A stretch of 64,000 nucleotides of DNA from Eledone cirrhosa (Eukaryota), in contig OZ024746.1 of assembly GCA_964016885.1 (NCBI GenBank), positions 25,048,001-25,112,000 of the forward strand. Direction: 5' to 3'. Position 1 is the first letter of the stretch. Each line of letters begins with the position of its first letter. Shown here in pieces: positions 3,005 through 57,002 of this stretch. The notes under the pieces are model-generated. The model saw only the letters and a program-made list of their open reading frames with translations. It had not been told where the DNA came from and did no database searches. The position numbers and the translations under genes are program-made.

Positions 3005-6000
3005 TTAACGTGGGTAACATACGAATGCCCAAACATACACAACTGGCATTACCATTAAAGTCTACATGGGTAACATACATACTAACACATGTACACACAA
3101 CTGGCATTACCATTAAAGTCTACATGGGTAACATACATACTAACACATGTAGACACAACTGGCATTACCATTAAAGTCAACATGGGTTACATACATACTA
3201 ACACATGTAGACACAACTGGCATTACCATTAAAGTCAACATGGGTTACATACATACTAACACATGTACACACAACTGGCATTACTATTAAAGTCTACATA
3301 GGTAACATACATACTCACACATGTAGACACAACTGGCATTACTATTAAAGTCAACATGGGTAACATACATACTAACACATGTAGACACAACTGGCATTAC
3401 TATTAAAGTCAACATGGGTAACATACATACTAACACATGTAGACAACTGGCATTACCATTAAAGTCAACATGGGTAACATACATACTAACACATGTAGAC
3501 ACAACTGGCATTACTATTAAAGTCAACATGGGTAACATACATACTAACACATGTAGACAACTGGCATTACCATTAAAGTCAACATGGGTAACATACATAG
3601 TAACACATGTAGACACAACTGGCATTACCATTAAAGTCAACATGGGTAACATACATACTAACACATGTAGACACAACTGGCATTACTATTAAAGTCAACA
3701 TGGGTAACATACATACTAACACATGTAGACACAACTGGCATTACCATTAAAGTCAACATGGGTAACATACATACTAACACATGTAGACACAACTGGCATT
3801 ACTATTAAAGTCAACATGGGTAACATACATACTAACACATGTAGACACAACTGGCATTACCATTAAAGTCAACATGGGTAACATACATACTAACACATGT
3901 AGAGACAACTGGCATTACTATTAAAGTCAACATGGGTAACATACATACTAACACATGTAGACACAACTGGCATTACTATTAAATTCAACATGGGTAACAT
4001 ACATACAACAGGCATTACTATTAAAGTCAACATGGGTAACATACATACTAACACATGTAGAGACAACTGGCATTACTATTAAAGTCAATATGGGTAACAT
4101 ACATACTAACACATGTAGACAACTGGCATTACCATTAAAGTCAACATGGGTAACATACATAGTAACACATGTAGACACAACTGGCATTACCATTAAAGTC
4201 AACATGGGTAACATACATACTAACACATGTAGACACAACTGGCATTACTATTAAAGTCAACATGGGTAACATACATACTAACACATGTAGACATAACTGG
4301 CATTACTATTAAAGTCTACATGGGTAACATACATACTAACACATGTACACATAACTGGCATTACCATTAAAGTCAACATGGTAACATACATACTAACACA
4401 TGTACACATAACTGGCATTACCATTAAAGTCAACATGGTAACATACATACTAACACATGTAGAGACAACTGGCATTACTATTAAAGTCAACATGGGTTAC
4501 ATACATACTAACACATGTACACATAACTGGCATTACCATTAAAGTCTACATGGGTAACATACATACTAACACATGTAGAGACAACTGGCATTACTATTAA
4601 AGTCAACATGGGTAACATACATACTAACACATGTACACATAACTGGCATTACCATTAAAGTCTACATGGGTAACATACATACTAACACATGTACACATAA
4701 CTGGCATTACCATTAAAGTCAACATGGGTAACATACATACTAACACATGTACACATAACTGGCATTACCATTAAAGTCAACATGGGTAACATACATACTA
4801 ACACATGTAGACATAACTGGCATTACTATTAAAGTCAACATGGGTAACATACATACTAACACATGTAGACACAACTGGCATTACTATTAAAGTCTACATG
4901 GGTAACATACATACTAACACATGTAGACACAACTGGCATTACTATTAAAGTCAACATGGGTAACATACACACTAACGCATGTAGACACAACTGGCATTAC
5001 TATTAAAGTCAACATGGGTAACATACATACTAACACATGTAGACACAACTGGCATTACTATTAAAGTCAACATGGGTAACATACATACTAACACATGTAG
5101 ACACAACTGGCATTACTATTAAAGTCTACATGGGTAACATACATACTAACACATGTAGACACAACTGGCATTACTATTAAAGTCAACATGGGTAACATAC
5201 ATACTAACACATGTAGACACAACTGGCATTACTATTAAAGTCTACATGGGTAACATACATACTAACACATGTAGACACAACTGGCATTACTATTAAAGTC
5301 AACATGGGTAACATACATACTAACACATGTACACACAACTGGTATTACTATTAAAGTCAACATGGGTAACATACATACTAACACATGTACACATAACTGG
5401 CATTACCATTAAAGTCAACATGGGTAACATACATACTAACACATGTACACACAACTGGCATTACTATTAAAGTCAACATGGGTAACATACATACTAACAC
5501 ATGTACACATAACTGGCATTACTATTAAAGTCAACATGGGTAACATACATACTAACACATGTAGACACAACTGGCATTACTATTAAAGTCTACATGGGTA
5601 ACATACATACTAACACATGTAGACACAACTGGCATTACTATTAAAGTCAACATGGGTAACATACACACTAACACATGTAGACACAACTGGCATTACTATT
5701 AAAGTCAACATGGGTAACATACATACTAACACATGTAGACACAACTGGCATTACTATTAAAGTCAACATGGGTAACATACACACTAACACATGTAGACAC
5801 AACTGGCATTACTATTAAAGTCAACATGGGTAACATACATACTAACACATGTAGACACAACTGGCATTACTATTAAAGTCTACATGGGTAACATACATAC
5901 TAACACATGTAGACACAACTGGCATTACTATTAAATTCAACATGGGTAACATACATACAACTGGCATTACCATTAAAGTCAACATGGGTAACATACATAC

Positions 6001-9000
6001 TAACACATGTACACATAATTGGCATTACCATTAAAGTCTACATGGGTAACATACATACTAACACATGTAGACATAACTGGCATTACTATTAAAGTCAACA
6101 TGGGTAACATACATACTAACACATGTAGACAACTGGCATTTCTATTAAAGTCTACATGGGTAACATACATACTAACACATGTAGACAACTGGCATTACTA
6201 TTAAAGTCAACATGGGTAACATACATACTAACACATGTACACACAACTGGCATTACTATTAAAGTCTACATGGGTAACATACATACTAACACATGTACAG
6301 ATAACTGGCATTACTATTAAAGTCAACATGGGTAACATACATACTAACACATGTACACACAACTGGCATTACTATTAAAGTCTACATGGGTAACATACAT
6401 ACTAACACATGTACACACAACTGGCATTACTATTAAAGTCAACATGGGTAACATAAATACTAACACATGTAGACAACTGGCATTACTATTAAAGTCAACA
6501 TGGGTAACATACATACTAACACATGTACACACAACTGGCATTACTATTAAAGTCAACATGGGAAACATACATACTAACACATGTAAACACAACTGGCATT
6601 ACTATTAAAGTCAACATGGGTAACATACATACTAACACATGTAGACAACTGGCATTACCATTAAAGTCAACATGGGTAACATACATACTAACACATGTAG
6701 ACAAGTGGCATTACCATTAAAGTCAACATGGGTAACATACATACTAACACATGTAAACAACTGGCATTACTATTAAAGTCAACATGGGTAACATACACAC
6801 TAACACATGTACACACAACTGGCATTACTATTAAAGTCAACATGGGTAACATACATACTAACACATGTAGACACAACTGGCATTACTATTAAAGTCAACA
6901 TGGGTAACATACATACTAACACATGTAGACACAACTGGCATTACCATTAAAGTCAACATGGGTTACATACATACTAACACATGTACACACAACTGGCATT
7001 ACTATTAAAGTCAACATGGGTAACATACATACTCACACATGTAGACACAACTGGCATTACTATTAAAGTCAACATGGGTAACATACATACTAACACATGT
7101 AGACACAACTGGCATTACTATTAAAGTCAACATGGGTAACATACATACTAACACATGTAGACAACTGGCATTACCATTAAAGTCAACATGGGTAACATAC
7201 ATACTAACACATGTAGACACAACTGGCATTACTATTAAAGTCAACATGGGTAACATACATACTAACACATGTAGACACAACTGGTATTACTATTAAAGTC
7301 AACATGGGTAACATACATACTAACACATGTAGACAACTGGCATTACCATTAAAGTCAACATGGGTAACATACATACTAACACATGTAGACATAACTGGCA
7401 TTACTATTAAAGTCAACATGGGTAACATACATACTAACACATGTAGACACAACTGGCATTACCATTAAAGTCAACATGGGTAACATACATACTAACACAT
7501 GTAGACAACTGGCATTACTATTAAAGTCAACATGGGAAACATACATACTAACACATGTAGACACAACTGGCATTACTATTAAATTCTACATGGGTAACAT
7601 ACATACTAACACATGTAGACACAACTGGCATTACTATTAAAGTCAACATGGGTAACATACACACTAATACATGTACACACAACTGGCATTACTATTAAAG
7701 TCAACATGGGTAACATACATGTACACACAACTGGCATTAGTATTAAAGTCAACATGGGTAACATACATACTAACACATGTAGACACAACTGGCATTACTA
7801 TTAAAGTCAACATGGGTAACATACATACTAACACATGTAGACACAACTGGCATTACTATTAAAGTCAACATGGGTAACATACATACTAACACATGTAGAC
7901 AACTGGCATTACCATTAAAGTCAACATGGGTAACATACATACTAACACATGTAGACACAACTGGCATTACTATTAAAGTCAACATGGGTAACATACATAC
8001 TAACACATGTAGACACAACTAGTATTACTATTAAAGTCAACATGGGTAACATACATACTAACACATGTAGACAACTGGCATTACCATTAAAGTCAACATG
8101 GGTAACATACATACTAACACATGTAGACACAACTGGCATTACTATTAAAGTCAACATGGGTAACATACATACTAACACATGTAGACACAACTGGTATTAC
8201 TATTAAAGTCAACATGGGTAACATACATACTAACACATGTAGACAACTGGCATTACTATTAAAGTCAACATGGGTAACATACATACTAACACATGTAGAC
8301 ACAACTGGCATTACCATTAAAGTCAACATGGGTAACATACATAGTAACACATGTACACACAACTGGCATTACTATTAAAGTCAACATGGGTAACATACAT
8401 ACTAACACATGTAGACATAACTGGCATTACTATTAAAGTCAACATGGGTAACATACATACTAACACATGTAGACATAACTGGCATTACTATTAAAGTCAA
8501 CATGGGTAACATACATACTAACACATGTAGACACAACTGGCATTACCATTAAAGTCAACATGGGTAACATACATACTAACACATGTAGACACAACTGGCA
8601 TTACTATTAAAGTCAACATGGGTAACATACATACTAACACATGTAGACACAACTGGCATTACTATTAAAGTCAACATGGGTAACATACATACTAACACAT
8701 GTAGACATAACTGGCATTACTATTAAAGTCAACATGGGTAACATACATACTAACACATGTAGACATAACTGGCATTACTATTAAAGTCAACATGGGTAAC
8801 ATACATACTAACACATGTAGACACAACTGGCATTACCATTAAAGTCAACATGGGTAACATACATACTAACACATGTAGACACAACTGGCATTACTATTAA
8901 AGTCAACATGGGTAACATACATACTAACACATGTAGACACAACTGGTATTACCATTAAAGTCAACATGGGTAACATACATACTAACACATGTAGACACAA

Positions 9001-12000
9001 CTGGCATTACCATTAAAGTCAACATGGGTAACATACATACTAACACATGTAGACACAACTGGCATTACTATTAAAGTCAACATGGGTAACATACATACTA
9101 ACACATGTAGACACAACTGGCATTACCATTAAAGTCAACATGGGTAACATACATACTAACACATGTAGACACAACTGGCATTACTATTAAAGTCAACATG
9201 GGTAACATACATACTAACACATGTAGACACAACTGGCATTACCATTAAAGTCAACATGGGTAACATACATACTAACACATGTAGACACAACTGGCATTAC
9301 TATTAAAGTCAACATGGGTAACATACATACTAACACATGTAGACATAACTGGCATTACTATTAAAGTCTACATGGGTAACATACATACTAACAAATGTAC
9401 ACATAACTGGCATTACTATTAAAGTCAACATGGGTAACATACATACTAACACATGTACACATAACTGGCATTACCATTAAAGTCTACATGGGTAATATAC
9501 ATACTAACACATGTACACATAACTGGCATTACCATTAAAGTCTACATGGGTAACATACATACTAACACATGTACACATAACTGGCATTACCATTAAAGTC
9601 TACATGGGTAACATACATACTAACACATGTACACATAACTGGCATTACCATTAAAGTCTACATGGGTAACATACATACTAACACATGTACACATAACTGG
9701 CATTACCATTAAAGTCTACATGGGTAATATACATACTAACACATGTACACATAACTGGCATTACCATTAAAGTCTACATGGGTAACATACATACTAACAC
9801 ATGTACACATAACTGGCATTACCATTAAAGTCTACATGGGTAACATACATACTAACACATGTACACATAACTGGCATTACCATTAAAGTCTACATGGGTA
9901 ACATACATACTAACACATGTACACATAACTGGCATTACCATTAAAGTCTACATGGGTAACATACATACTAACACATGTACACATAACTGGCATTACCATT
10001 AAAGTCTACATGGGTAACATACATACTAACACATGTACACATAACTGGCATTACCATTAAAGTCTACATGGGTAACATACATACTAACACATGTACACAT
10101 AACTGGCATTACTATTAAAGTCTACATGGGTAACATACATACTAACACATGTACACATAACTGGCATTACCATTAAAGTCAACATGGTAACATACATACT
10201 AACACATGTACACATAACTGGCATTACCATTAAAGTCTACATGGGTAACATACATACTAACAAATGTACACATAACTGGCATTACTATTAAAGTCAACAT
10301 GGGTAACATACATACTAACACATGTACACATAACTGGCATTACCATTAAAGTCTACATGGGTAACATACATACTAACACATGTACACATAACTGGCATTA
10401 CCATTAAAGTCTACATGGGTAACATACATACTAACACATGTAGACACAACTGGCATTACCATTAAAGTCTACATGGGTAACATACATACTAACACATGTA
10501 CACATAACTGGCATTACTATTAAAGTCAACATGGGTAACATACATACTAACACATGTACACATAACTGGCATTACCATTAAAGTCTACATGGGTAACATA
10601 CATACTAACACATGTACACATAACTGGCATTACTATTAAAGTCTACATGAGTAACATACATACTAACACATGTAGACACAACTGGCATTACCATTAAAGT
10701 CTACATGGGTAACATACATACTAACACATGTACACACAACTAGCATTACTATTAAAGTCAACATAGGTAACATACATACTAACACATGTAGACATAACTG
10801 GCATTACTATTAAAGTCAACATGGGTAACATACATACTAACACATGTACACATAACTGGCATTACTATTAAGGTCAACATGGGTAACATACATACTAACA
10901 CATGTAGACACAATTGGCATTACTATTAAAGTCTACATGGGTAACATACATACTAGTACATGTAGACAACTGGCATTACTATTAAAGTCAACATGGGTAA
11001 CATACATACTAACACATGTAGACACAACTGGCATTACTATTAAAGTCAACATGGGTAACATACATACTAACACATGTAGACAACTGGCATTACTATTAAA
11101 GTCTACATGGGTAACATACATACTAACACATGTAGACACAACTGGCATTACTATTAAAGTCAACATGGGTAACATACATACTAACACATGTAGACACAAC
11201 TGGCATTACTATTAAAGTCAACATGGGTAACATACATACTAACACATGTTCACACGACTGGTATTACTATTAAAGTCAACATGGGTAACATACATACTAA
11301 CACATGTACACATAACTGGCATCACCATTAAAGTCAACATGGGTAACATACATACTAACACATGTACACATAACTGGCATTACTATTAAAGTCTACATGG
11401 GTAACATACATACTAACACATGTACACATAACTGGCATTACTATTAAAGTCAACATGGGTAACATACATACTAACACATGTAGACACAACTGGCATTACT
11501 ATTAAAGTCTACATGGGTAACATACATACTAACACATGTAGACACAACTGGCATTACTATTAAAGTCAACATGGGTAACATACACACTAACACATGTAGA
11601 CATAACTGGCATTACTATTAAAGTCAACATGGGTAACATACATACTAACACATGTACACACAACTAGCATTACTATTAAAGTCAACATGGGTAACATACA
11701 CACTAATACATGTACACACAACTGGCATTACTATTAAAGTCAACATGGGTAACATACATACTAACACATGTACACATAACTGGCATTACTATTAAGGTCA
11801 ACATGGGTAACATACATACTAACACATGTAGACACAATTGGCATTACTATTAAAGTCTACATGGGTAACATACATACTAATACATGTAGACAACTGGCAT
11901 TACTATTAAAGTCAACATGGGTAACATACATACTAACACCTGTAGACAACTGGCATTACTATTAAAGTCAACATGGGTAACATACATACTAACACATGTA

Positions 12001-15000
12001 GACAACTGGCATTACCATTAAAGGCAACATGGGAAACATACATACTAACACATGTAGACACAACTGGCATTACTATTAAAGTCAACATGGGTAACATACA
12101 TACTAACACATGTAGACAACTGGCATTACCATTAAAGGCAACATGGGAAACATACATACTAACACATGTAGACACAACTGGCATTACTATTAAAGTCTAC
12201 ATGGGTAACATACATACTAACACATGTAGACACAACTGGCATTACTATTAAAGTCAACATGGGTAACATACACACTAACACATGTACACACAACTGGCAT
12301 TACTATTAAATTCAACATGGGTAACATACATACAACTGGCATTACCATTAAAGTCAACATGGGTAACATACATACTAACACATGTACACATAATTGGCAT
12401 TACCATTAAAGTCTACATGGGTAACATACATACTAACACATGTAGACATAACTGGCATTACTATTAAAGTCAACATGGGTAACATACATACTAACACATG
12501 TACACATAACTGGCATTACTATTAAAGTCAACATGGGTAACATACATACTAACACATGTAGACACAACTGGCATTTCTATTAAAGTCTACATGGGTAACA
12601 TACATACTAACACATGTAGACAACTGGCATTACTATTAAAGTCAACATGGGTAACATACATACTAACACATGTAGAGACAACTGGCATTACTATTAAAGT
12701 CAACATGGGTAACATACATACTAACACATGTAGAGACAACTGGCATTACTATTAAAGTCAACATGGGTAACATACATACTAACACATGTACACACAACTG
12801 GCATTACTATTAAAGTCAACATGGGTAACATACACACTAACACATGTAGACACAACTGGCATTACTATTAAAGTCAACATGGGTAACATACATACTAACA
12901 CATGTAAACACAACTGGCATTACTATTAAAGTCTACATGGGTAACATACATACTAACACATGTAGACACAACTGGCATTACTATTAAAGTCAACATGGGT
13001 AACATACATACTAACACATGTACACACAACTGGCATTACTATTAAATTCAACATGGGTAATATACATACTAACACATGTAGACAACTGGCATTACCATTA
13101 AAGTCAACATGGGTAACATACATACTAACACATGTAAACACAACTGGCATTACTATTAAAGTCAACATGGGTAACATACATACTAACACATGTAGACACA
13201 ACTGGCATTACTATTAAAGTCTACATGGGTAACATACATACTAACACATGTACACACAACTGGCATTACTATTAAAGTCAACATGGGTAACATACATACT
13301 AACACATGTACACACAACTGGCATTACTATTAAAGTCAACATGGGTAACATACATACTAACACATGTAAACACAACTGGCATTACTATTAAAGTCAACAT
13401 GGGTAACATACACACTAACACATGTAGACACAACTGGCATTACTATTAAAGTCAACATGGATAACATACATACTAATACATGTACACACAACTGGCATTA
13501 CTATTAAATTCAACATGGGTAACATACATACTAACACATGTAGACAACTGGCATTACCATTAAAGTCAACATGGGTAACATACATACTAACACATGTAAA
13601 CACAATTGGCATTACTATTAAAGTCAACATGGGTAACATACACACTAACACATGTACACACAACTGGCATTACTATTAAAGTCAACATGGGTAACATACA
13701 TACTAACACATGTAGACACAACTGGCATTACTATTAAAGTCAACATGGGTAACATACATACTAACACATGTACACACAACTGGCATTACTATTAAAGTCA
13801 ACATGGGAAACATACATACTAACACATGTAGACACAACTGGCATTACTATTAAAGTCTACATGGGTAACAGACATACTAACACATGTAGACACAACTGGC
13901 ATTACTATAAAAGTCAACATCGGTAACATACACACTAACACATGTACACACAACTGGCATTACTATTAAATTCAACATGGGTAACATACATACAACTGGC
14001 ATTACCATTAAAGTCAACATGGGTAACATACATACTAACACATGTACACATAATTGGCATTACCATTAAAGTCTACATGGGTAACATACATACTAACACA
14101 TGTAGAAATAACTGGCATTACTATTAAAGTCAACATGGGTAACATACATACTAACACATGTCGACACAACTGGCATTTCTATTAAAGTCTACATGGGTAA
14201 CATACATACTAACACATGTAGACAACTGGCATTACTATTAAAGTCAACATGGGTTACATACATACTAACACATGTACACATAACTGGCATTACTATTAAA
14301 GTCAACATGGGAAACATACATACTAACACATGTAGACACAACTGGCATTTCTATTAAAGTCTACATGGGTAACATACATACTAACACATGTAGACACAAC
14401 TGGCATTTCTATTAAAGTCTACATGGGTAACATACATACTAACACATGTAGACAACTGGCATTACTATTAAAGTCAACATGGGTTACATACATACTAACA
14501 CATGTACACATAACTGGCATTACTATTAAAGTCTACATGGGTAACATACATACTAACACATGTAGACACAACTGGCATTACTATTAAAGTCAACATGGGT
14601 AACATACATACTAACACATGTACACACAACTGGCATTACTATTAAAGTCTACATGGGTAACATACATACTAACACATGTAGACAACTGGCATTACTATTA
14701 AAGTCAACATGGGTAACATACTAACACATGTAGACACAACTGGCATTACTATTAAAGTCCACATGGGTAACATACATACTAACACATGTACACACAACTG
14801 GCATTACTATTAAAGTCCACATGGGTAACATACATACTAACACATGTACACACAACTGGCATTACTATTAAAGTCTACATAGGTAACATACATACTAACA
14901 CATGTAGACACAACTGGCATTACTATTAAAGTCCACATGGGTAACATACATACTAACACATGTACACACAACTGGCATTACTATTAAAGTCTACATGGGT

Positions 15001-18000
15001 AACATACATACTAACACATGTAGACAACTGGCATTACTATTAAAGTCAACATGGGTAACATACATACTAACACATGTAGACACAACTGGCATTACTATTA
15101 AAGTCTACATGGGTAACATACATACTAACACATGTAGACACAACTGGTATTACTATTAAAGTCTACATGGGTAACATACATACTAACACATGTACACACA
15201 ACTGGCATTACTATTAAAGTCAACATGGGTAACATACATACTAACACATGTAGACACAACTGGCATTACTATTAAAGTCAACATGGGTAACATACACACT
15301 AACACATGTACACACAACTGGCATTACTATTAAATTCAACATGGGTAACATACATACAACTGGCATTACCATTAAAGTCAACATGGGTAACATACATACT
15401 AACACATGTACACATAATTGGCATTACCATTAAAGTCTACATGGGTAACATACATACTAACACATGTAGACATAACTGGCATTACTATTAAAGTCAACAT
15501 GGGTAACATACATACTAACACATGTACACATAACTGGCATTACTATTAAAGTCAACATGGGTAACATACATACTAACACATGTAGACACAACTGGCATTT
15601 CTATTAAAGTCTACATGGGTAACATACATACTAACACATGTAGACAACTGGCATTACTATTAAAGTCAACATGGGTAACATACATACTAACACATGTAGA
15701 GACAACTGGCATTACTATTAAAGTCAACATGGGTAACATACATACTAACACATGTAGAGACAACTGGCATTACTATTAAAGTCAACATGGGTAACATACA
15801 TACTAACACATGTACACACAACTGGCATTACTATTAAAGTCAACATGGGTAACATACACACTAACACATGTAGACACAACTGGCATTACTATTAAAGTCA
15901 ACATGGGTAACATACATACTAACACATGTAAACACAACTGGCATTACTATTAAAGTCTACATGGGTAACATACATACTAACACATGTAGACACAACTGGC
16001 ATTACTATTAAAGTCAACATGGGTAACATACATACTAACACATGTACACACAACTGGCATTACTATTAAATTCAACATGGGTAATATACATACTAACACA
16101 TGTAGACAACTGGCATTACCATTAAAGTCAACATGGGTAACATACATACTAACACATGTAAACACAACTGGCATTACTATTAAAGTCAACATGGGTAACA
16201 TACATACTAACACATGTAGACACAACTGGCATTACTATTAAAGTCTACATGGGTAACATACATACTAACACATGTACACACAACTGGCATTACTATTAAA
16301 GTCAACATGGGTAACATACATACTAACACATGTACACACAACTGGCATTACTATTAAAGTCAACATGGGTAACATACATACTAACACATGTAAACACAAC
16401 TGGCATTACTATTAAAGTCAACATGGGTAACATACACACTAACACATGTAGACACAACTGGCATTACTATTAAAGTCAACATGGATAACATACATACTAA
16501 TACATGTACACACAACTGGCATTACTATTAAATTCAACATGGGTAACATACATACTAACACATGTAGACAACTGGCATTACCATTAAAGTCAACATGGGT
16601 AACATACATACTAACACATGTAAACACAATTGGCATTACTATTAAAGTCAACATGGGTAACATACACACTAACACATGTACACACAACTGGCATTACTAT
16701 TAAAGTCAACATGGGTAACATACATACTAACACATGTAGACACAACTGGCATTACTATTAAAGTCAACATGGGTAACATACATACTAACACATGTACACA
16801 CAACTGGCATTACTATTAAAGTCAACATGGGAAACATACATACTAACACATGTAGACACAACTGGCATTACTATTAAAGTCTACATGGGTAACAGACATA
16901 CTAACACATGTAGACACAACTGGCATTACTATAAAAGTCAACATCGGTAACATACACACTAACACATGTACACACAACTGGCATTACTATTAAATTCAAC
17001 ATGGGTAACATACATACAACTGGCATTACCATTAAAGTCAACATGGGTAACATACATACTAACACATGTACACATAATTGGCATTACCATTAAAGTCTAC
17101 ATGGGTAACATACATACTAACACATGTAGAAATAACTGGCATTACTATTAAAGTCAACATGGGTAACATACATACTAACACATGTCGACACAACTGGCAT
17201 TTCTATTAAAGTCTACATGGGTAACATACATACTAACACATGTAGACAACTGGCATTACTATTAAAGTCAACATGGGTTACATACATACTAACACATGTA
17301 CACATAACTGGCATTACTATTAAAGTCAACATGGGAAACATACATACTAACACATGTAGACACAACTGGCATTTCTATTAAAGTCTACATGGGTAACATA
17401 CATACTAACACATGTAGACACAACTGGCATTTCTATTAAAGTCTACATGGGTAACATACATACTAACACATGTAGACAACTGGCATTACTATTAAAGTCA
17501 ACATGGGTTACATACATACTAACACATGTACACATAACTGGCATTACTATTAAAGTCTACATGGGTAACATACATACTAACACATGTAGACACAACTGGC
17601 ATTACTATTAAAGTCAACATGGGTAACATACATACTAACACATGTACACACAACTGGCATTACTATTAAAGTCTACATGGGTAACATACATACTAACACA
17701 TGTAGACAACTGGCATTACTATTAAAGTCAACATGGGTAACATACTAACACATGTAGACACAACTGGCATTACTATTAAAGTCCACATGGGTAACATACA
17801 TACTAACACATGTACACACAACTGGCATTACTATTAAAGTCCACATGGGTAACATACATACTAACACATGTACACACAACTGGCATTACTATTAAAGTCT
17901 ACATAGGTAACATACATACTAACACATGTAGACACAACTGGCATTACTATTAAAGTCCACATGGGTAACATACATACTAACACATGTACACACAACTGGC

Positions 18001-18709
18001 ATTACTATTAAAGTCTACATGGGTAACATACATACTAACACATGTAGACAACTGGCATTACTATTAAAGTCAACATGGGTAACATACATACTAACACATG
18101 TAGACACAACTGGCATTACTATTAAAGTCTACATGGGTAACATACATACTAACACATGTAGACACAACTGGTATTACTATTAAAGTCTACATGGGTAACA
18201 TACATACTAACACATGTACACACAACTGGCATTACTATTAAAGTCAACATGGGTAACATACATACTAACACATGTACACACAACTGGCATTACTATTAAA
18301 GTCTACATGGGTAACATACATACTAACACATGTAGACAACTGGCATTACTATTAAAGTCAACATGGGTAACATACATACTAACACATGTAGACACAACTG
18401 GCATTACTATTAAAGTCCACATGGGTAACATACATACTAACACATGTACACACAACTGGCATTACTATTAAAGTCCACATGGGTAACATACATACTAACA
18501 CATGTACACACAACTGGCATTACTATTAAAGTCTACATAGGTAACATACATACTAACACATGTAGACACAACTGGCATTACTATTAAAGTCCACATGGGT
18601 AACATACATACTAACACATGTACACATAACTGGCATTACTATTAAAGTCCACATGGGTAACATACATACTAACACATGTACACACAACTGGCATTACTAT
18701 TAAAGTCAA
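3005..18709. repeat. 58-bp tandem satellite, roughly 270 units; consensus acaactggcattactattaaagtcaacatgggtaacatacatactaacacatgtagac
   Basis: Continuous, highly homogeneous tandem array with 56-bp and shorter deletion variants and recurrent SNP variants. Confidence 0.99.
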
Positions 18710-31171: not shown

Positions 31172-31235
31172 TATAGGGCTTCCTGATGATTTCTCTCGAA
31201 TGAAACAGTTCTAGTCCTGTAGAAGCTCTTCTATA
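31172..31235 (+). ncRNA. Type I hammerhead ribozyme motif, family A
   Basis: gggcttc-CTGATGA-t ttc tctc gaa t-GAA ACAG ttctagtc CTGT A-gaagctc; predicted cleavage after GUA at 31221. Confidence 0.8.
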
Positions 31236-31308
31236 TTAAAACATTTATACTCTGCTATGCATTGAATACCTTACTTACTGTGGTTACCTCCGATTCAACC
31301 CGGAATAA
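31172..31308 (+). mobile_element. Short Penelope-type pseudo-LTR unit (hammerhead plus ~85-nt tail), family A
   Basis: Tail ttatactctgctatg.attgagtaccttactta..aacccgg is shared with the copies at 32080, 52095 and (minus strand) 56750; ends in (TA)n. Confidence 0.7.
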
Positions 31309-31390
31309 TATATATATAAAAACAAATAACGAAACGAAATTAAATTTCGTTTCGTTTGTAACTCACTTTTGTATGACTGACGCTTAAACA

Positions 31391-31987
31391 ATTAAGTTAA
31401 AAATGTACATCCACATATGTATACTGAAATACTAGTATGCATATGAATACACACACGTGTACATATGTAGATGTACCGAGTTTTTCACTGGACACTTTAC
31501 TGTGAGTGTCCAGCTATTCTGTATGTAAACACACAGACAAACCGGTTTTTAGAGTCATACTGGTTTTCGAGGAAACACCTTTCCTCTATTCTCCAGAAAG
31601 CCAGACAAGGAATACCGGTATGTACTCACGCTCTATGCAAATTAGTCTGCCCACTACTAATTTTCATAGAAAAAGCATATAACGATATGTGCTTTTACGA
31701 TTCTCTAGAAAGGCCGGAAGATAGGTAAATATTGCTGATGAGATGTAACAACATCGAAACTAGTCCAGTATTCCTTGTCTGGCTTTCTGGAGAATAGAGG
31801 AAAGGTGTTTCTTCGAAAACCAGTATGACTCTAAAAACCGGTTTATCTGTGTGTTTACATTCAGAATAGCTGGACACTCACAGTAAAGTGTCCAGTGAAA
31901 AACTCGGTACATCTACATATGTACACGTGTGTGTATTCATATGCATACTAGTATTTCAGTATACATATGTGGATGTACATTTTTAAC

Positions 31988-31992
<5 letters not shown>
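31391..31992. mobile_element. 228-bp inverted repeat with a hammerhead in the spacer (inverted pseudo-LTR structure)
   Basis: Arms 31391-31618 and 31765-31992 with about 4 mismatches by eye; the right end abuts (TA)n. Confidence 0.85.
31728..31772 (+). ncRNA. Minimal type I hammerhead ribozyme, family B
   Basis: aatattg-CTGATGA-gatgt aaca acatc-GAAAC ta GTC-cagtatt: 7-bp stem I, 5-bp stem II, palindromic ACTAGT stem III; cleavage predicted after C31765. Confidence 0.88.
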
Positions 31993-32016
<24 letters not shown>

Positions 32017-32021
<5 letters not shown>

Positions 32022-32074
32022 TGAGATTCTACAGGACTAGAACTGTTTCATTCATTAGAAATCATCAGGAATCC
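32017..32074 (-). ncRNA. Type I hammerhead motif, family A (inverted partner copy)
   Basis: Reverse complement of the adjacent plus-strand copy; stem I ggattc/gaatct retained. Confidence 0.7.
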
Positions 32075-32075
32075 T

Positions 32076-32134
32076 GATGGGATTCCTGATGATTTCTAAT
32101 GAATGAAACAGTTCTAGTCCTGTAGAATCTCATC
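32076..32134 (+). ncRNA. Type I hammerhead ribozyme motif, family A
   Basis: gatgggattc-CTGATGA-t ttc taat gaa t-GAA ACAG ttctagtc CTGT A-gaatctcatc; 10-bp stem I; family tail continues to ~32210. Confidence 0.82.
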
Positions 32135-32391
32135 TATATTAAAACTGTTATACTCTGCTATGTATTGAGTACCTTACTTACTGTGGTTACCTCCGATTCA
32201 ACCCGGAATAACGTATATATATATATATATGTAGATAAATATAATAATAAATATATATATGTAGATAAATCTACCAAAATATACGGTAGTGTCCAATCCG
32301 TATGAAGAACTCAATGTAATACAAATATCATGAAAAGAGAAGATGTATTCAAACATTTTTTAGATGAAAATCACAGGAAAACCGAGTCAAG

Positions 32392-32502: not shown

Positions 32503-33625
32503 ATATATATATATATATTTATATATAGTATAATTAAAAGTAAACATGTATGCACGATTTTAAGTTTCGAGGTCCAGTTATAGCCGCCACTGTATAGTGG
32601 AGCAGCCGTTTCAATACTGGCCCCCAGTGTGGTATATTAAGTGTATGAAATTTTAATTATATTAAATAAGCTTTCTTCTAATAGACTGAGCATTGTTTTC
32701 CTTAGCCTTTTGTCTACGGATATCCTTCACACACAAATACACATCGTCAGTTATGATGAGTATTGCAGTTCCTGCTTCTGAAATTAACGTGTAAGTGGCT
32801 GAGCATTCCAAAGACACGTGTATCCTTAACGTAATTCTCAGGAAGATTCAGCCTAACACCGGCCCTTTGACTTACAGATACAGTCCATCCGACGAGCTTC
32901 CAAAGAGTTTCCGTCTACCTAGTTTCATTCAAAACATGAGTCGACTTGGGATCTTGGTGAATGACACTTGCTCGAGATCCCATGCAATGCGATTGAACTC
33001 GCGACCCAATGATTGGGAAGATAACTTAACCATACGGCCATGCTGTGTCCATATACACGCGCGCGCACCTCCTATTGAAGCGGCTTATTGCGATCGTTTT
33101 TGACCGGAATCTCTTAAACGACAATACACGACTGATAACATTAAGCAGACGGTATAGTAATACCCGGTGTTTGGAATCACTAATGTTGATAACAATAAGC
33201 GTTTGATAATATTATAATGAGCGGCTTCATCATCATATTCTTTTTTTTTTAACTGGTTAGTCATTGGACAGCGGCCATGCTGGGGCACCGCCTTTAAAAG
33301 TTTAGTGTGCAGGACCATATTTAGACGGGGGGGGGGGGGGTCCAAGGCCCAGTTTGACAAGGAGTGCCAAGGGCATTCGGTTCCACCGATAAATCCAGCA
33401 GTGTGTGTGTACATGATGTACTTATAAGTCACAAAACAGAATAAAATAACTACAACTAGAAGGGAGTGGAGAACTGCAAGATCGTGCGAAATGCTACAAA
33501 TAGCAGCCAAATATCGCTGAAATCATGCCCTACTGACCTTAGAAAAAAAGAAGAAACATTAAATTTAAGAAATAGGGAAATAGAGATATCTTCATATCGT
33601 CTGCTAGAGCAAGAATTATCATAAT

Positions 33626-33804
33626 TTTTTCTACTTTTGGCACAAGGCCAGCAAAACCCAGTTCATTACTGGTACTTTATTTTATCGACCCGATAAGGAT
33701 GAAAGGCAAAGTTAACCTAGACGGGATTTGAACTCAGACCGTAAAGGGACGTAACTATGCTGGAAAGCATGGCATCCGATCCTCTACCGATACTGCCAAT
33801 TCAC
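33626..33804 (-). mobile_element. tRNA-derived SINE
   Basis: Same family as 1440; TSD cataat at 33620-25 and 33805-10; absent from the inverted paralogous site near 34890. Confidence 0.88.
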
Positions 33805-33902
33805 CATAATGGAACTAAAAGGGTCAAATGCAATATAGATATAACGGATCTTGACCGAGGTTTTCGATTGGAAGAATTATTCACGCTTTATTATTTTAAT
33901 AA

Positions 33903-34004
33903 TCCCGCCGAGGTTAACTTTGCCTTTCATCCTTACGGGGTCGATAAAATAAAGTACCAGTAATGCACTGAGTAATTGCTGCCCTTGTGCCTAAAGTAGA
34001 AACA
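33903..34004 (+). mobile_element. 5'-truncated tRNA-derived SINE
   Basis: Starts inside the B box; 13-bp TSD attattttaataa at 33890-33902 and 34005-34017. Confidence 0.88.
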
Positions 34005-34435
34005 ATTATTTTAATAAAAATAATATTTATGTTTGTTTCTGCGGTCATTCGTGATGTCAGCGGAGCAAGATAGTTCAAATTGGGAAAGGAAATCTCTGTT
34101 ACTGATTTCGACCACAGTATTATTTTTATCAAAGTCTGGCATTTATTTTTTCGCTCTTTTAAATCGAACAGCTATATTACGGGATATAGATATAAACCTA
34201 ATGATAGGGAAAGTAACTTCTTAGTCATACGGCCATGTTCTGTCCATACACACATATGCGCACACTCGGGTTAAGTCGCTTATTGCGATCGTCTTGGACG
34301 GGAATCTTTGTGTACTGTAACTAAGAAAAATACAGTGTGATCAAATCTGGAAGTCCTTTGATATGAGCCTTACTGGATTAGGGCTGATCTGGGATTAAAC
34401 AACAAAAACATTATAGGATCGTAAACATTCTATTT

Positions 34436-34585
34436 AGTGTTCAAATTCCGCCGAGGTCAACTTTGCTTCTCATCCTTCAGGGTCGATAAAAGAAAGTACT
34501 AGTCAAGTATTATGGTTGATTTAATCGATTTCCTCATGCCCCTAAATTCTGGTCTTATGACAATGTTAGAAAGAATTATTATTAT
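34436..34585 (+). mobile_element. Older related SINE fragment (others near 36445-36590, 40050-40190, 56245-56440, 58020-58145, 58510-58630)
   Basis: gttcaaattccgccgaggtcaactttgc..tcatcc..gggtcgataaa, with an (ATT)n tail. Confidence 0.7.
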
Positions 34586-35246
34586 AGAAATGCTTCGTGT
34601 GTGTGTTTATCTATATCCCGTAACATAGCAGTTCGACAAAAAAGAGAGAAAGATAAAATAAGTACCAGGCTTTAATAAAAAAAATAATACTGTGGTTGAA
34701 ATCAGTAACTGGGAGATTTCCTTTCTCAATTGGAACCATCTTGCTCCGCTGACATCAGGAATGACCGCAGAAACAAAGCATAAATATTCTTTTTATTAAA
34801 ATAATAAAGCGTGAATAATTCTTCCAATTGAAAACCTCGATCAAGATCCGTTATATCTATACTGCATTCCTTGACCTTTTTAGTTCCGTTATGATAATTA
34901 TTGCTGTAGCATATGATATGAAGATATGACTATTTTCCCTATTTGTTTTTAATGGACTGTTCTGCACACATAAACGCGCGCGTATAAAGAAGGTAGATCC
35001 GTAAGACTTTGTATAGTGGGAGAGGAGAAAGAAAATAAGGGAGTGAGATGAGGATGTTGAGAATTAGATTTCTAGAGGAGTGTGTGTATATATATATATA
35101 TATATAAGCAGAAGGGATATTCAATTTGTTGGTAATTCAACAAATATAAATGTTTATAACTGATTCAGAGCACTCGACAAGTTTTCTGGAGTATAATATA
35201 CAATGATATTAAATAAATAGAAACTATATTTATAAAACCATATTTA

Positions 35247-35303
35247 TTCTATTATATATATTTCAAGGATACCAACATTTTGGTACACTTTCATCAGATA
35301 AAA
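35247..35303 (-). ncRNA. Type I hammerhead ribozyme motif, family C (AT-rich)
   Basis: Minus strand: ttttat-CTGATGA-aagtgtaccaa aatg ttggtatcctt-GAAAT atat ATA-atagaa; all three stems can form. Confidence 0.7.
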
Positions 35304-51811: not shown

Positions 51812-52222
<411 letters not shown>

Positions 52223-56749: not shown

Positions 56750-56937
56750 GTTAAAAGATGTACTCAATACATTGGTAGAGTATAGGCATCTTTATTATAT
56801 ATATAGAAATTACTTCTACAAAACTAGAACTGTTTCATTTGTATGAAATCATCAGGAATGTCTCAATGATTTCACTCTTGATGATTTTATTCCTGATGAT
56901 TTCATATGAATGAAACAGGTCTAGTCCTGTAGAAGTC

Positions 56938-56945
<8 letters not shown>
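56750..56945. mobile_element. Family A head-to-head pseudo-LTR pair with hammerhead cores on both strands
   Basis: Plus strand: ttc-CTGATGA(56893)-tttcatatgaat-GAAACAGGtctagtCCTGTA-gaag. The minus copy at 56805-56860 carries the family tail. Followed by (TA)n. Confidence 0.7.

Positions 56946-57002
<57 letters not shown>

What the first reader, a model, noticed from the sequence alone, without database searches (positions are those of the whole stretch)
31391..31992. 228-bp inverted repeat whose inner boundary coincides with a hammerhead cleavage site
Seen: the right arm begins at 31765/31766, and the intact minimal hammerhead at 31728-31772 is predicted to cut after C31765. The left, inverted arm therefore copies only sequence 3' of the cut. 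Inferred: a fossil of reverse transcription of a self-cleaved RNA whose 5' end was made by the ribozyme, then joined in inverted orientation. That would be indirect evidence of cleavage in vivo. Stem III is only the palindrome ACUAGU, which suggests a dimeric active form. The structure could be mistaken for a MITE.
Basis: partly seen in the sequence, partly recalled or inferred. Interest (0 to 1): 0.85.

Follow-up and report, generated by a model that had tools for sequence, protein, structure and literature searches.

The report
Penelope-type hammerhead retrozyme, chance cut-site junction
This is one of thousands of back-to-back insertions of a 466-base non-coding repeat with a predicted self-cutting RNA motif, likely pasted into TA repeats by a Penelope-type retrotransposon; its junction lies a few bases from the predicted cut, but other copies break all along the repeat, so the match is likely chance.

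Summary
The inverted repeat and the type I hammerhead are real, but the repeat is the overlap of two truncated copies of a 466-bp tandem unit with at least 2,313 tail ends in this genome. The element spans 31316-31992, 75 bp more than reported. The true junction is 31614, so the left arm starts 2-4 nt 3' of the predicted cut, not at it. In 153 sampled arm starts none lies at the cut and they cover the whole unit; 122 of 153 arms read through at least one cut site. Two further sets of 100 and 98 breakpoints show no spike at the cut. A broad, roughly twofold excess over unit 228-277 did replicate and is unexplained. Two fixed outer ends in (TA)n, a 75-bp tail and head-to-head arms match Penelope-like insertions; an RT+GIY-YIG element here shows the same two-end footprint. 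Verdict: new family of a known kind (animal non-LTR retrozyme); not evidence of in vivo cleavage. The scan noted such elements before on other DNA of this genome.

The parts
31316..31614 (-). Tail-bearing arm: unit 243-466 followed by unit 1-75; 5'-truncated 2-4 nt 3' of the predicted cut
   Evidence: 1 difference in 299 nt from the reference unit, at a site where all 68 sampled units carry the window's base
31316..31390 (-). 75-bp tail (unit 1-75, with a 29-nt hairpin at unit 35-63); its end is one of two fixed outer ends of the family
   Evidence: 2,313 exact tail-end matches; 88 of 95 followed by ATATAT/ATATAC
31614..31992 (+). Second (inverted) arm: unit 88-466, ends at the family's other fixed end; 4 differences from the unit
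31614..31615 (.). Head-to-head junction with 1-2 nt microhomology
31727..31773 (+). Type I hammerhead motif; C3 31735, predicted cut after C31765; palindromic ACTAGT in stem III
   Evidence: cleavage predicted, not shown
31308..31315 (.). Left (AT)n target flank, itself the end of a copy of a second hammerhead family
31993..32019 (.). Right (AT)n target flank

Best explanation
The locus is a head-to-head pair of 5'-truncated copies of a 466-bp non-coding hammerhead repeat (an animal non-LTR retrozyme), likely written into a TA microsatellite by a borrowed Penelope-type reverse transcriptase-endonuclease, and the junction's closeness to the predicted cut is likely chance. Shown: two fixed outer ends 69-75 nt apart on the unit, both abutting (TA)n; free inner ends spread over the unit; arms of under one to over ten tandem units that read through the cut site; both arms sharing one sequence variant. 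Inferred: the endonuclease nicks both strands of (TA)n; each 3' end primes cDNA at one of two fixed internal sites of the RNA; each cDNA stops at a near-random point; the two cDNA ends are joined, often by microhomology. The template was uncut at the time of copying, most likely a ligated circle read round (which would itself need earlier ribozyme cleavage) or an uncut tandem transcript.
For: 466-bp tandem arrays at 88-100% identity; 2,313 exact tail ends. Tail end followed by (AT)n in 88 of 95; inverted arms end at unit 466 plus 0-7 nt in 59 of 61 and abut (TA)n in 54 of 61. 62 of 91 insertions have a clear inverted arm, and 5 of 21 'armless' ones show a short stub. Starts: KS P=0.27, 0 of 153 at 240; no spike at 238-243 in either enriched set. 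69 of 91 tail arms and 53 of 62 inverted arms cross at least one cut site. Junction overlap of 3 nt or more in 23 of 62 against 6.3% by chance. Arm-to-arm divergence median 0.64% against 5.6% family-wide; 34 of 150 two-armed insertions carry a variant fixed in all covering units of both arms and absent from the other 149, in up to 12 units. Circular fold -155.5 kcal/mol, z=-12 against 60 shuffles. Young RT+GIY-YIG elements exist in the genome (938-aa frame) and one family has two (TA)n-abutting 3' ends 66 nt apart. The layout matches PLE insertions (PMC8557442) and two internal RT start sites on both strands were shown in vitro (PMC11167929).
Against: A pre-set test for unit 240-260 replicated in new data: 22 of 85 against 11.9 expected, P=0.003, so breakpoints are not fully independent of the hammerhead region. 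No sequence link between the unit and a PLE terminal repeat was found in 50 GIY-YIG loci, of 150 matches listed and 10,596 candidates, so the driver is unidentified. Circle versus homogeneous tandem transcript versus later gene conversion between arms cannot be told apart from DNA. In 10 of 48 insertions the two arms were farther apart than the nearest other locus.
Confidence: 0.8

Rival explanations
1. One reading: this arm, and a small share (about 5%) of arms in the family, ended because RT ran off a ribozyme-cut RNA and the cDNA end lost a few to some tens of bases before joining.
For: Window arm is 299-300 nt against 302 predicted for a cut monomer primed at the tail. 14 of 153 starts in 240-260 against 6.9 expected (post hoc); replicated 22 of 85, P=0.003; density 0.42 per nt upstream against 1.05.
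Against: No spike at the cut: 3 of 85 in 240-243 (2.3 expected) and 5 of 98 in 238-243 (9.2 expected); the raised stretch begins about 10 nt upstream of the cut (9 of 85 in 228-237) and runs to about 277; 240-260 against 261-297 is not significant in the narrow set (P=0.22); the excess is no larger in GUC loci (5 of 28) than in GUU loci (12 of 44). Other stretches are as dense (unit 25-47 and 441-460; 188-197 and 290-292). In the anole PLE no RNA reads ended at the cut and uncut RNA was the main substrate (PMC11167929).
Confidence: 0.15
2. Head-to-head arms arise by fold-back self-priming of one cDNA or by DNA-level palindrome formation, not by two primings.
For: 5 of 62 junctions have both arms starting within 5 nt of each other, about 1.5 expected (counted); self-priming was proposed for rotifer PLEs (PMC3846280); arm identity would follow.
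Against: 57 of 62 junctions are asymmetric, including the window (243 and 88); the two outer ends are different fixed sites, and either arm can be the longer.
Confidence: 0.1
3. A MITE or fold-back DNA transposon.
For: Long near-perfect inverted arms, TA target, high copy number.
Against: The true ends are not inverted copies of each other (unit 75 against unit 466); arm lengths run from under 20 to over 7,000 nt; there is no constant spacer; arms are tandem arrays.
Confidence: 0.02

Closest known systems
Animal non-LTR retrozymes (PMC7229834; bioRxiv 10.64898/2026.07.22.740005)
   Same: Non-coding tandem unit with one type I hammerhead per unit, low GC, strongly self-paired circular fold, many dispersed arrays.
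   Different: Unit is 466 bp against 150-450 bp reported; head-to-head two-armed insertions with two fixed ends in (TA)n were not in the passages seen ('inverted' occurs 0 times in PMC7229834 and once, in a reference, in the preprint); about half of copies have GUU at the cut triplet; RNA circles not shown here.
Penelope-like element insertions (PMC8557442 Fig. 2 legend; PMC3846280; PMC11167929)
   Same: 5'-truncated partial tandems, adjacent inverted 5'-truncated copy, tail at one end only, microsatellite target, microhomology joins, palindromic-stem-III hammerhead (PMC4209133).
   Different: No ORF; tail is 69-75 nt against 30-40 described; no homology to a PLE terminal repeat found here.
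Chlamydomonas MRC1-type non-autonomous Chlamys elements (PMC8557442, passage)
   Same: Non-autonomous PLE passengers forming multicopy head-to-tail insertions.
   Different: Those share 3' sequence with their autonomous families, and that clade lacks canonical hammerheads.

Membership tests
Animal non-LTR retrozyme | Tandem repeat with a complete type I hammerhead in consecutive units | tested here: met
   466-bp arrays; hammerhead read in 85 sampled loci, one compensatory stem II pair A-T 45 / T-A 38 of 84, probably a single event. The window copy itself holds one complete motif.
Animal non-LTR retrozyme | No protein coding, no LTR/PBS/PPT | tested here: met
   No ORF of 100 aa or more over 31316-31992; no constant direct terminal repeats. 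PBS/PPT not searched separately.
Animal non-LTR retrozyme | Stable self-paired monomer fold | tested here: met
   Circular MFE -155.5 kcal/mol, z=-12 against 60 dinucleotide shuffles.
Animal non-LTR retrozyme | Self-cleavage and expression as linear and circular RNA | not testable with these tools
   No RNA holder listed; needs bench assay.
PLE-mobilised non-autonomous element | Tail at one end, inverted 5'-truncated copy, microsatellite target | tested here: met
PLE-mobilised non-autonomous element | Sequence shared with the terminal repeat of an autonomous PLE | tested here: inconclusive
   None in 50 GIY-YIG loci, a small part of 10,596 candidates; same two-end footprint in one PLE family.
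MITE / DNA transposon | Fixed terminal inverted repeats at both true ends and constant length | tested here: not met
   Ends are unit 75 and unit 466; lengths vary over 100-fold.
MITE / DNA transposon | Constant target-site duplication | tested here: inconclusive
   Targets are (TA)n tracts, so a TSD cannot be read.

The most novel reading that the evidence does not exclude
The replicated twofold excess of arm starts over unit 228-277 is a blurred genomic record of ribozyme cleavage in vivo: about 1 arm in 20 ends where a Penelope RT, copying one RNA circle from both ends of the cut target, met a ribozyme-opened template. The family would then be a natural readout, in thousands of copies, of when a dimer-dependent hammerhead cuts during retrotransposition.
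Probability: 0.15. Interest if true: 0.6.

Novelty: new member of a known kind. Interest (0 to 1): 0.3.

Why it matters
As a single locus it is ordinary. As a family it gives a counted answer to an open point, whether hammerhead cleavage defines the template end in Penelope-type retrotransposition: here at least 80% of arms were copied through intact cut sites and none of 153 starts at the cut, in line with the in vitro result for the anole element. The two fixed priming sites, shared in layout with a resident autonomous PLE, name an enzyme-RNA pair that can be tested, and the both-arm private variants argue for one template molecule per insertion.

Tried and rejected
1), first negation pattern for breakpoints: swamped by intact units of one subfamily; discarded and redesigned. 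2) RT stalling at 3' strands of stems as the cause of the 228-277 excess: 58 of 153 starts in 3' strands against 53 expected, rotation null 0.24; not supported. 3) RNA editing fossilised in insertions: A>G 8 against T>C 2 in 59 loci fell to 10 against 6, P=0.45, in 150 insertions; rejected. 4) Autonomous partner by sequence: none in 50 GIY-YIG loci; hits were insertions of this family or of a 62%-identical sister family beside PLEs. 5) Window ORFs as a driver: no Pfam RT or nuclease in five ORFs. 6) Expression: no RNA holder listed, no evidence either way. In runs X4 and X5, of unknown kind, the family stands as one contig of 495 and 497 nt, one unit plus about 30 nt, as either a tandem array or a circle would assemble; whether these runs are DNA or RNA stays open. 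7) Cofolding two hammerheads gave swapped stems I and II, not the double-hammerhead stem III; uninformative. 8) alignment used wrong coordinates for three rows and was not used. 9) Literature: three searches gave no paper mapping insertion breakpoints against the hammerhead cut; subscription papers and preprint supplements were not visible.

Full report
Observation. The repeat finder gives arms 31391-31618 and 31765-31992, 228 nt, 98% complementary. Rfam finds Hammerhead_HH9 at 31717-31788, 37.6 bits, E 6e-6, under the gathering score of 52. A descriptor scan places C3 at 31735 and C17 at 31765 with stem I of 7 bp, stem II of 5 bp and ACTAGT in stem III. These parts of the finding stand.

What it is. 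A search of the own genome (3.0 Gb) with 31391-31992 returned 267 matches, many spaced 466 bp apart (only 40 of 98 candidates scored). A unit cut from L020 puts C3 at unit 209 and C17 at unit 239. The window holds unit 243-466 plus 1-75 on the minus strand (31614 to 31316) and unit 88-466 on the plus strand (31614-31992). The 228-bp repeat is only the overlap of these two truncated copies, and the element is 677 bp. The junction is at 31614 with 1 nt of microhomology, or 2 nt if the private G at 31768 was in the template; the left arm starts 2-4 nt 3' of the predicted cut. The last three bases of the reported left arm belong to the right copy. An exact pattern for the tail end has 2,313 matches, 0 in the reversed control; a few of these are internal variants, not ends (3 of 98 fetched).

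Anatomy of insertions. I fetched 98 regions covering the first 100 listed tail ends, all on the first 124 Mb of C1, and dropped three internal variants (L038, L106, L107), one duplicate (L062) and three arms that ran off the fetched edge. Of 91 insertions, 62 have a clear inverted arm head-to-head with the tail arm, 8 have odd or very short hits that were not counted, and 21 have none called, 5 of which show a stub. Outer ends are fixed: unit 75, followed by (AT)n in 88 of 95, and unit 466 plus 0-7 nt (peaks at +1, +3, +6) in 59 of 61, abutting (TA)n in 54 of 61 (these counts include the window). Junction overlaps of 3 nt or more occur in 23 of 62, against 6.3% by simulation; 16 have 1-31 inserted bases (BLAST ends, so approximate, and six large overlaps probably reflect internal palindromes).

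Among 153 arm starts: 0 at 240, 5 in 237-243 (2.3 expected, P=0.08), 6 in 235-245 (3.6, P=0.16), KS against uniform P=0.27. 69 of 91 tail arms and 53 of 62 inverted arms cross one or more cut sites. 14 starts fell in 240-260 (6.9 expected, post hoc P=0.01; 4% of windows are as high), so I fixed that window in the notebook before reading breakpoints from new data, drawn with patterns that demand a conserved anchor at 297-316 and non-consensus bases upstream. Wide set, the first 100 of 445 matches, range 148-297: 47, 28 and 25 starts in 148-239, 240-260 and 261-297; without first-sample loci 39, 22 and 24 of 85, P=0.003 for 240-260 (six rows from loci fetched for the other set were removed and one added from L002). 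The excess is real but broad: ten-base bins from 228 to 277 hold 9, 8, 10, 9, 10, so it begins upstream of the cut, and 240-243 holds 3 against 2.3 expected. Narrow set, the first 100 of 243 matches, range 234-297, one indel false positive and one duplicate dropped, 60 computed and 38 read by eye: 5 of 98 in 238-243 against 9.2 expected; 240-260 against 261-297 P=0.22 (0.04 if the 288-297 hot spot is left out). The two sets overlap in part and are not independent. In the wide set the share in 240-260 is 5 of 28 for GUC loci, 12 of 44 for GUU loci and 11 of 28 where the triplet could not be read; from general hammerhead knowledge (recalled) GUU cuts more slowly, so cleavage would predict the reverse. 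A structure-stall explanation failed too. 4 of 91 insertions have an arm starting at 239-244, so the window's layout is a one-in-25 event in a family of thousands. The neighbouring insertion of a second hammerhead family (32015-32212) has both arms starting about 44 nt 5' of its cut and reading through it.

Template. Arms of one insertion differ by a median 0.64%, against 0.86% to the nearest sampled locus and 5.6% family-wide; closer in 29, tied in 9, farther in 10 of 48; within insertions 268 variants are singletons and 19 shared by a subset of units. In 150 two-armed insertions from all fetched loci, 34 carry a variant fixed in every covering unit of both arms and absent from the others, in up to 12 units. 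This points to one template sequence per insertion: a circle read round, a homogeneous array transcript, or later conversion; DNA alone cannot separate them, and unsampled subfamilies may explain some 'private' variants. The circular fold is very stable (z=-12) and sets the hammerhead at the tip of a long stem, 174-208 with 240-269. The motif is conserved: ACTAGT in 85 of 85, one compensatory stem II pair, cut triplet GUC 41, GUU 43, GUA 1 (the set includes the window and one sister-family motif).

Driver. GIY-YIG gives 150 scored matches of 10,596 candidates. Fetched loci include RT+GIY-YIG frames of 938, 636, 477 and 436 aa with copies up to 97% identical. The L330 family has two alternative 3' ends abutting (TA)n, 66 nt apart: 5 at the first and 9 at the second among 14 ends read, two of the latter followed by little TA. 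That is the retrozyme's footprint. No homology between the unit and a PLE end was found in 50 loci, so mobilisation by a PLE is inferred.

Comparison with what is known. PMC8557442 (passages) describes PLE insertions as 5'-truncated partial tandems with an adjacent inverted 5'-truncated copy and a 30-40-bp tail. PMC11167929 (parts 1-2 of 4, the whole main text before most methods) shows a PLE nicking and extending both strands of AT-rich DNA, starting RT at two internal sites that bound the tail, using uncut RNA, with no RNA-seq reads ending at the hammerhead cut. PMC4209133 (passages) describes palindromic helix III and dimer action. PMC7229834 (passages) defines animal non-LTR retrozymes and their circles; bioRxiv 10.64898/2026.07.22.740005 (part 1 of 5 and passages; supplements closed) ties them to PLEs. 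PMC3846280 (passages) proposes self-priming for head-to-head repeats. Searches gave no paper mapping breakpoints against the cut. Earlier notes of this scan on the same genome describe a 467-nt unit, probably this family, the two-ended circle reading for a 310-nt family, and the same cut-site coincidence in a 487-nt family; they are leads, not support. A repeat at 33901-33961 recalls an octopus SINE; this is recall, not a call result.

Verdict. A new family of a known kind. The proposed fossil of in vivo cleavage is not supported at this locus; a weak, broad, unexplained excess near the ribozyme remains worth a whole-genome count. Interest 0.3.

Noticed in passing
window 31177-31308, 32015-32212, 52096-52222, 56760-56958: A second hammerhead family (GUA triplet, 4-bp stem III, short stem II) with the same two-armed layout and a tail of about 74 nt; two copies flank the finding in the same (AT)n tract. 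Deeper than the 466-bp family in run X1.
   Followed up: partly
window 35253-35297 (-), with nested inverted repeats over 33575-34938: A third hammerhead-like motif beside a decayed nested inverted structure; a similar motif occurs at L340:6051.
   Followed up: no
L340:6779-8001, L341:1890-2500, L324:2666-3264: A sister repeat family of about 510 bp, 62% identical to the 466-bp unit over its length, with a hammerhead whose stems differ but keep ACTAGT.
   Followed up: partly
L330:3809-6622 (-), L331, L335, L338, L339, L341: Young RT+GIY-YIG Penelope-type family with a 938-aa open frame, inverted arms and two 3' ends 66 nt apart in (TA)n; candidate driver. Two-cysteine-pair linker suggests the Neptune type (recalled).
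   Followed up: partly
G000:C1:95620582-95686943 (L106, L107, L148-L159): An array of about 66 kb of the unit with higher-order repeats and a strand switch near its end; local amplification far beyond typical insertions.
   Followed up: no
unit position 239 (window 31765): About half of sampled copies have GUU instead of GUC at the cut triplet, mostly linked to the T-A form of stem II, yet this subfamily is the most common single variant (33 of 85).
   Followed up: partly
window 31768 and 31615: The private A>G in stem I pairs with the first base beyond the left arm; either carried by the template or converted within the palindrome.
   Followed up: partly
window 3037-18709: A 58-bp satellite of about 270 copies, 15.7 kb.
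   Followed up: no
window 51872-51941 (-): tRNA-like match just over the Rfam threshold (30.2 bits against 29), possibly a SINE head.
   Followed up: no
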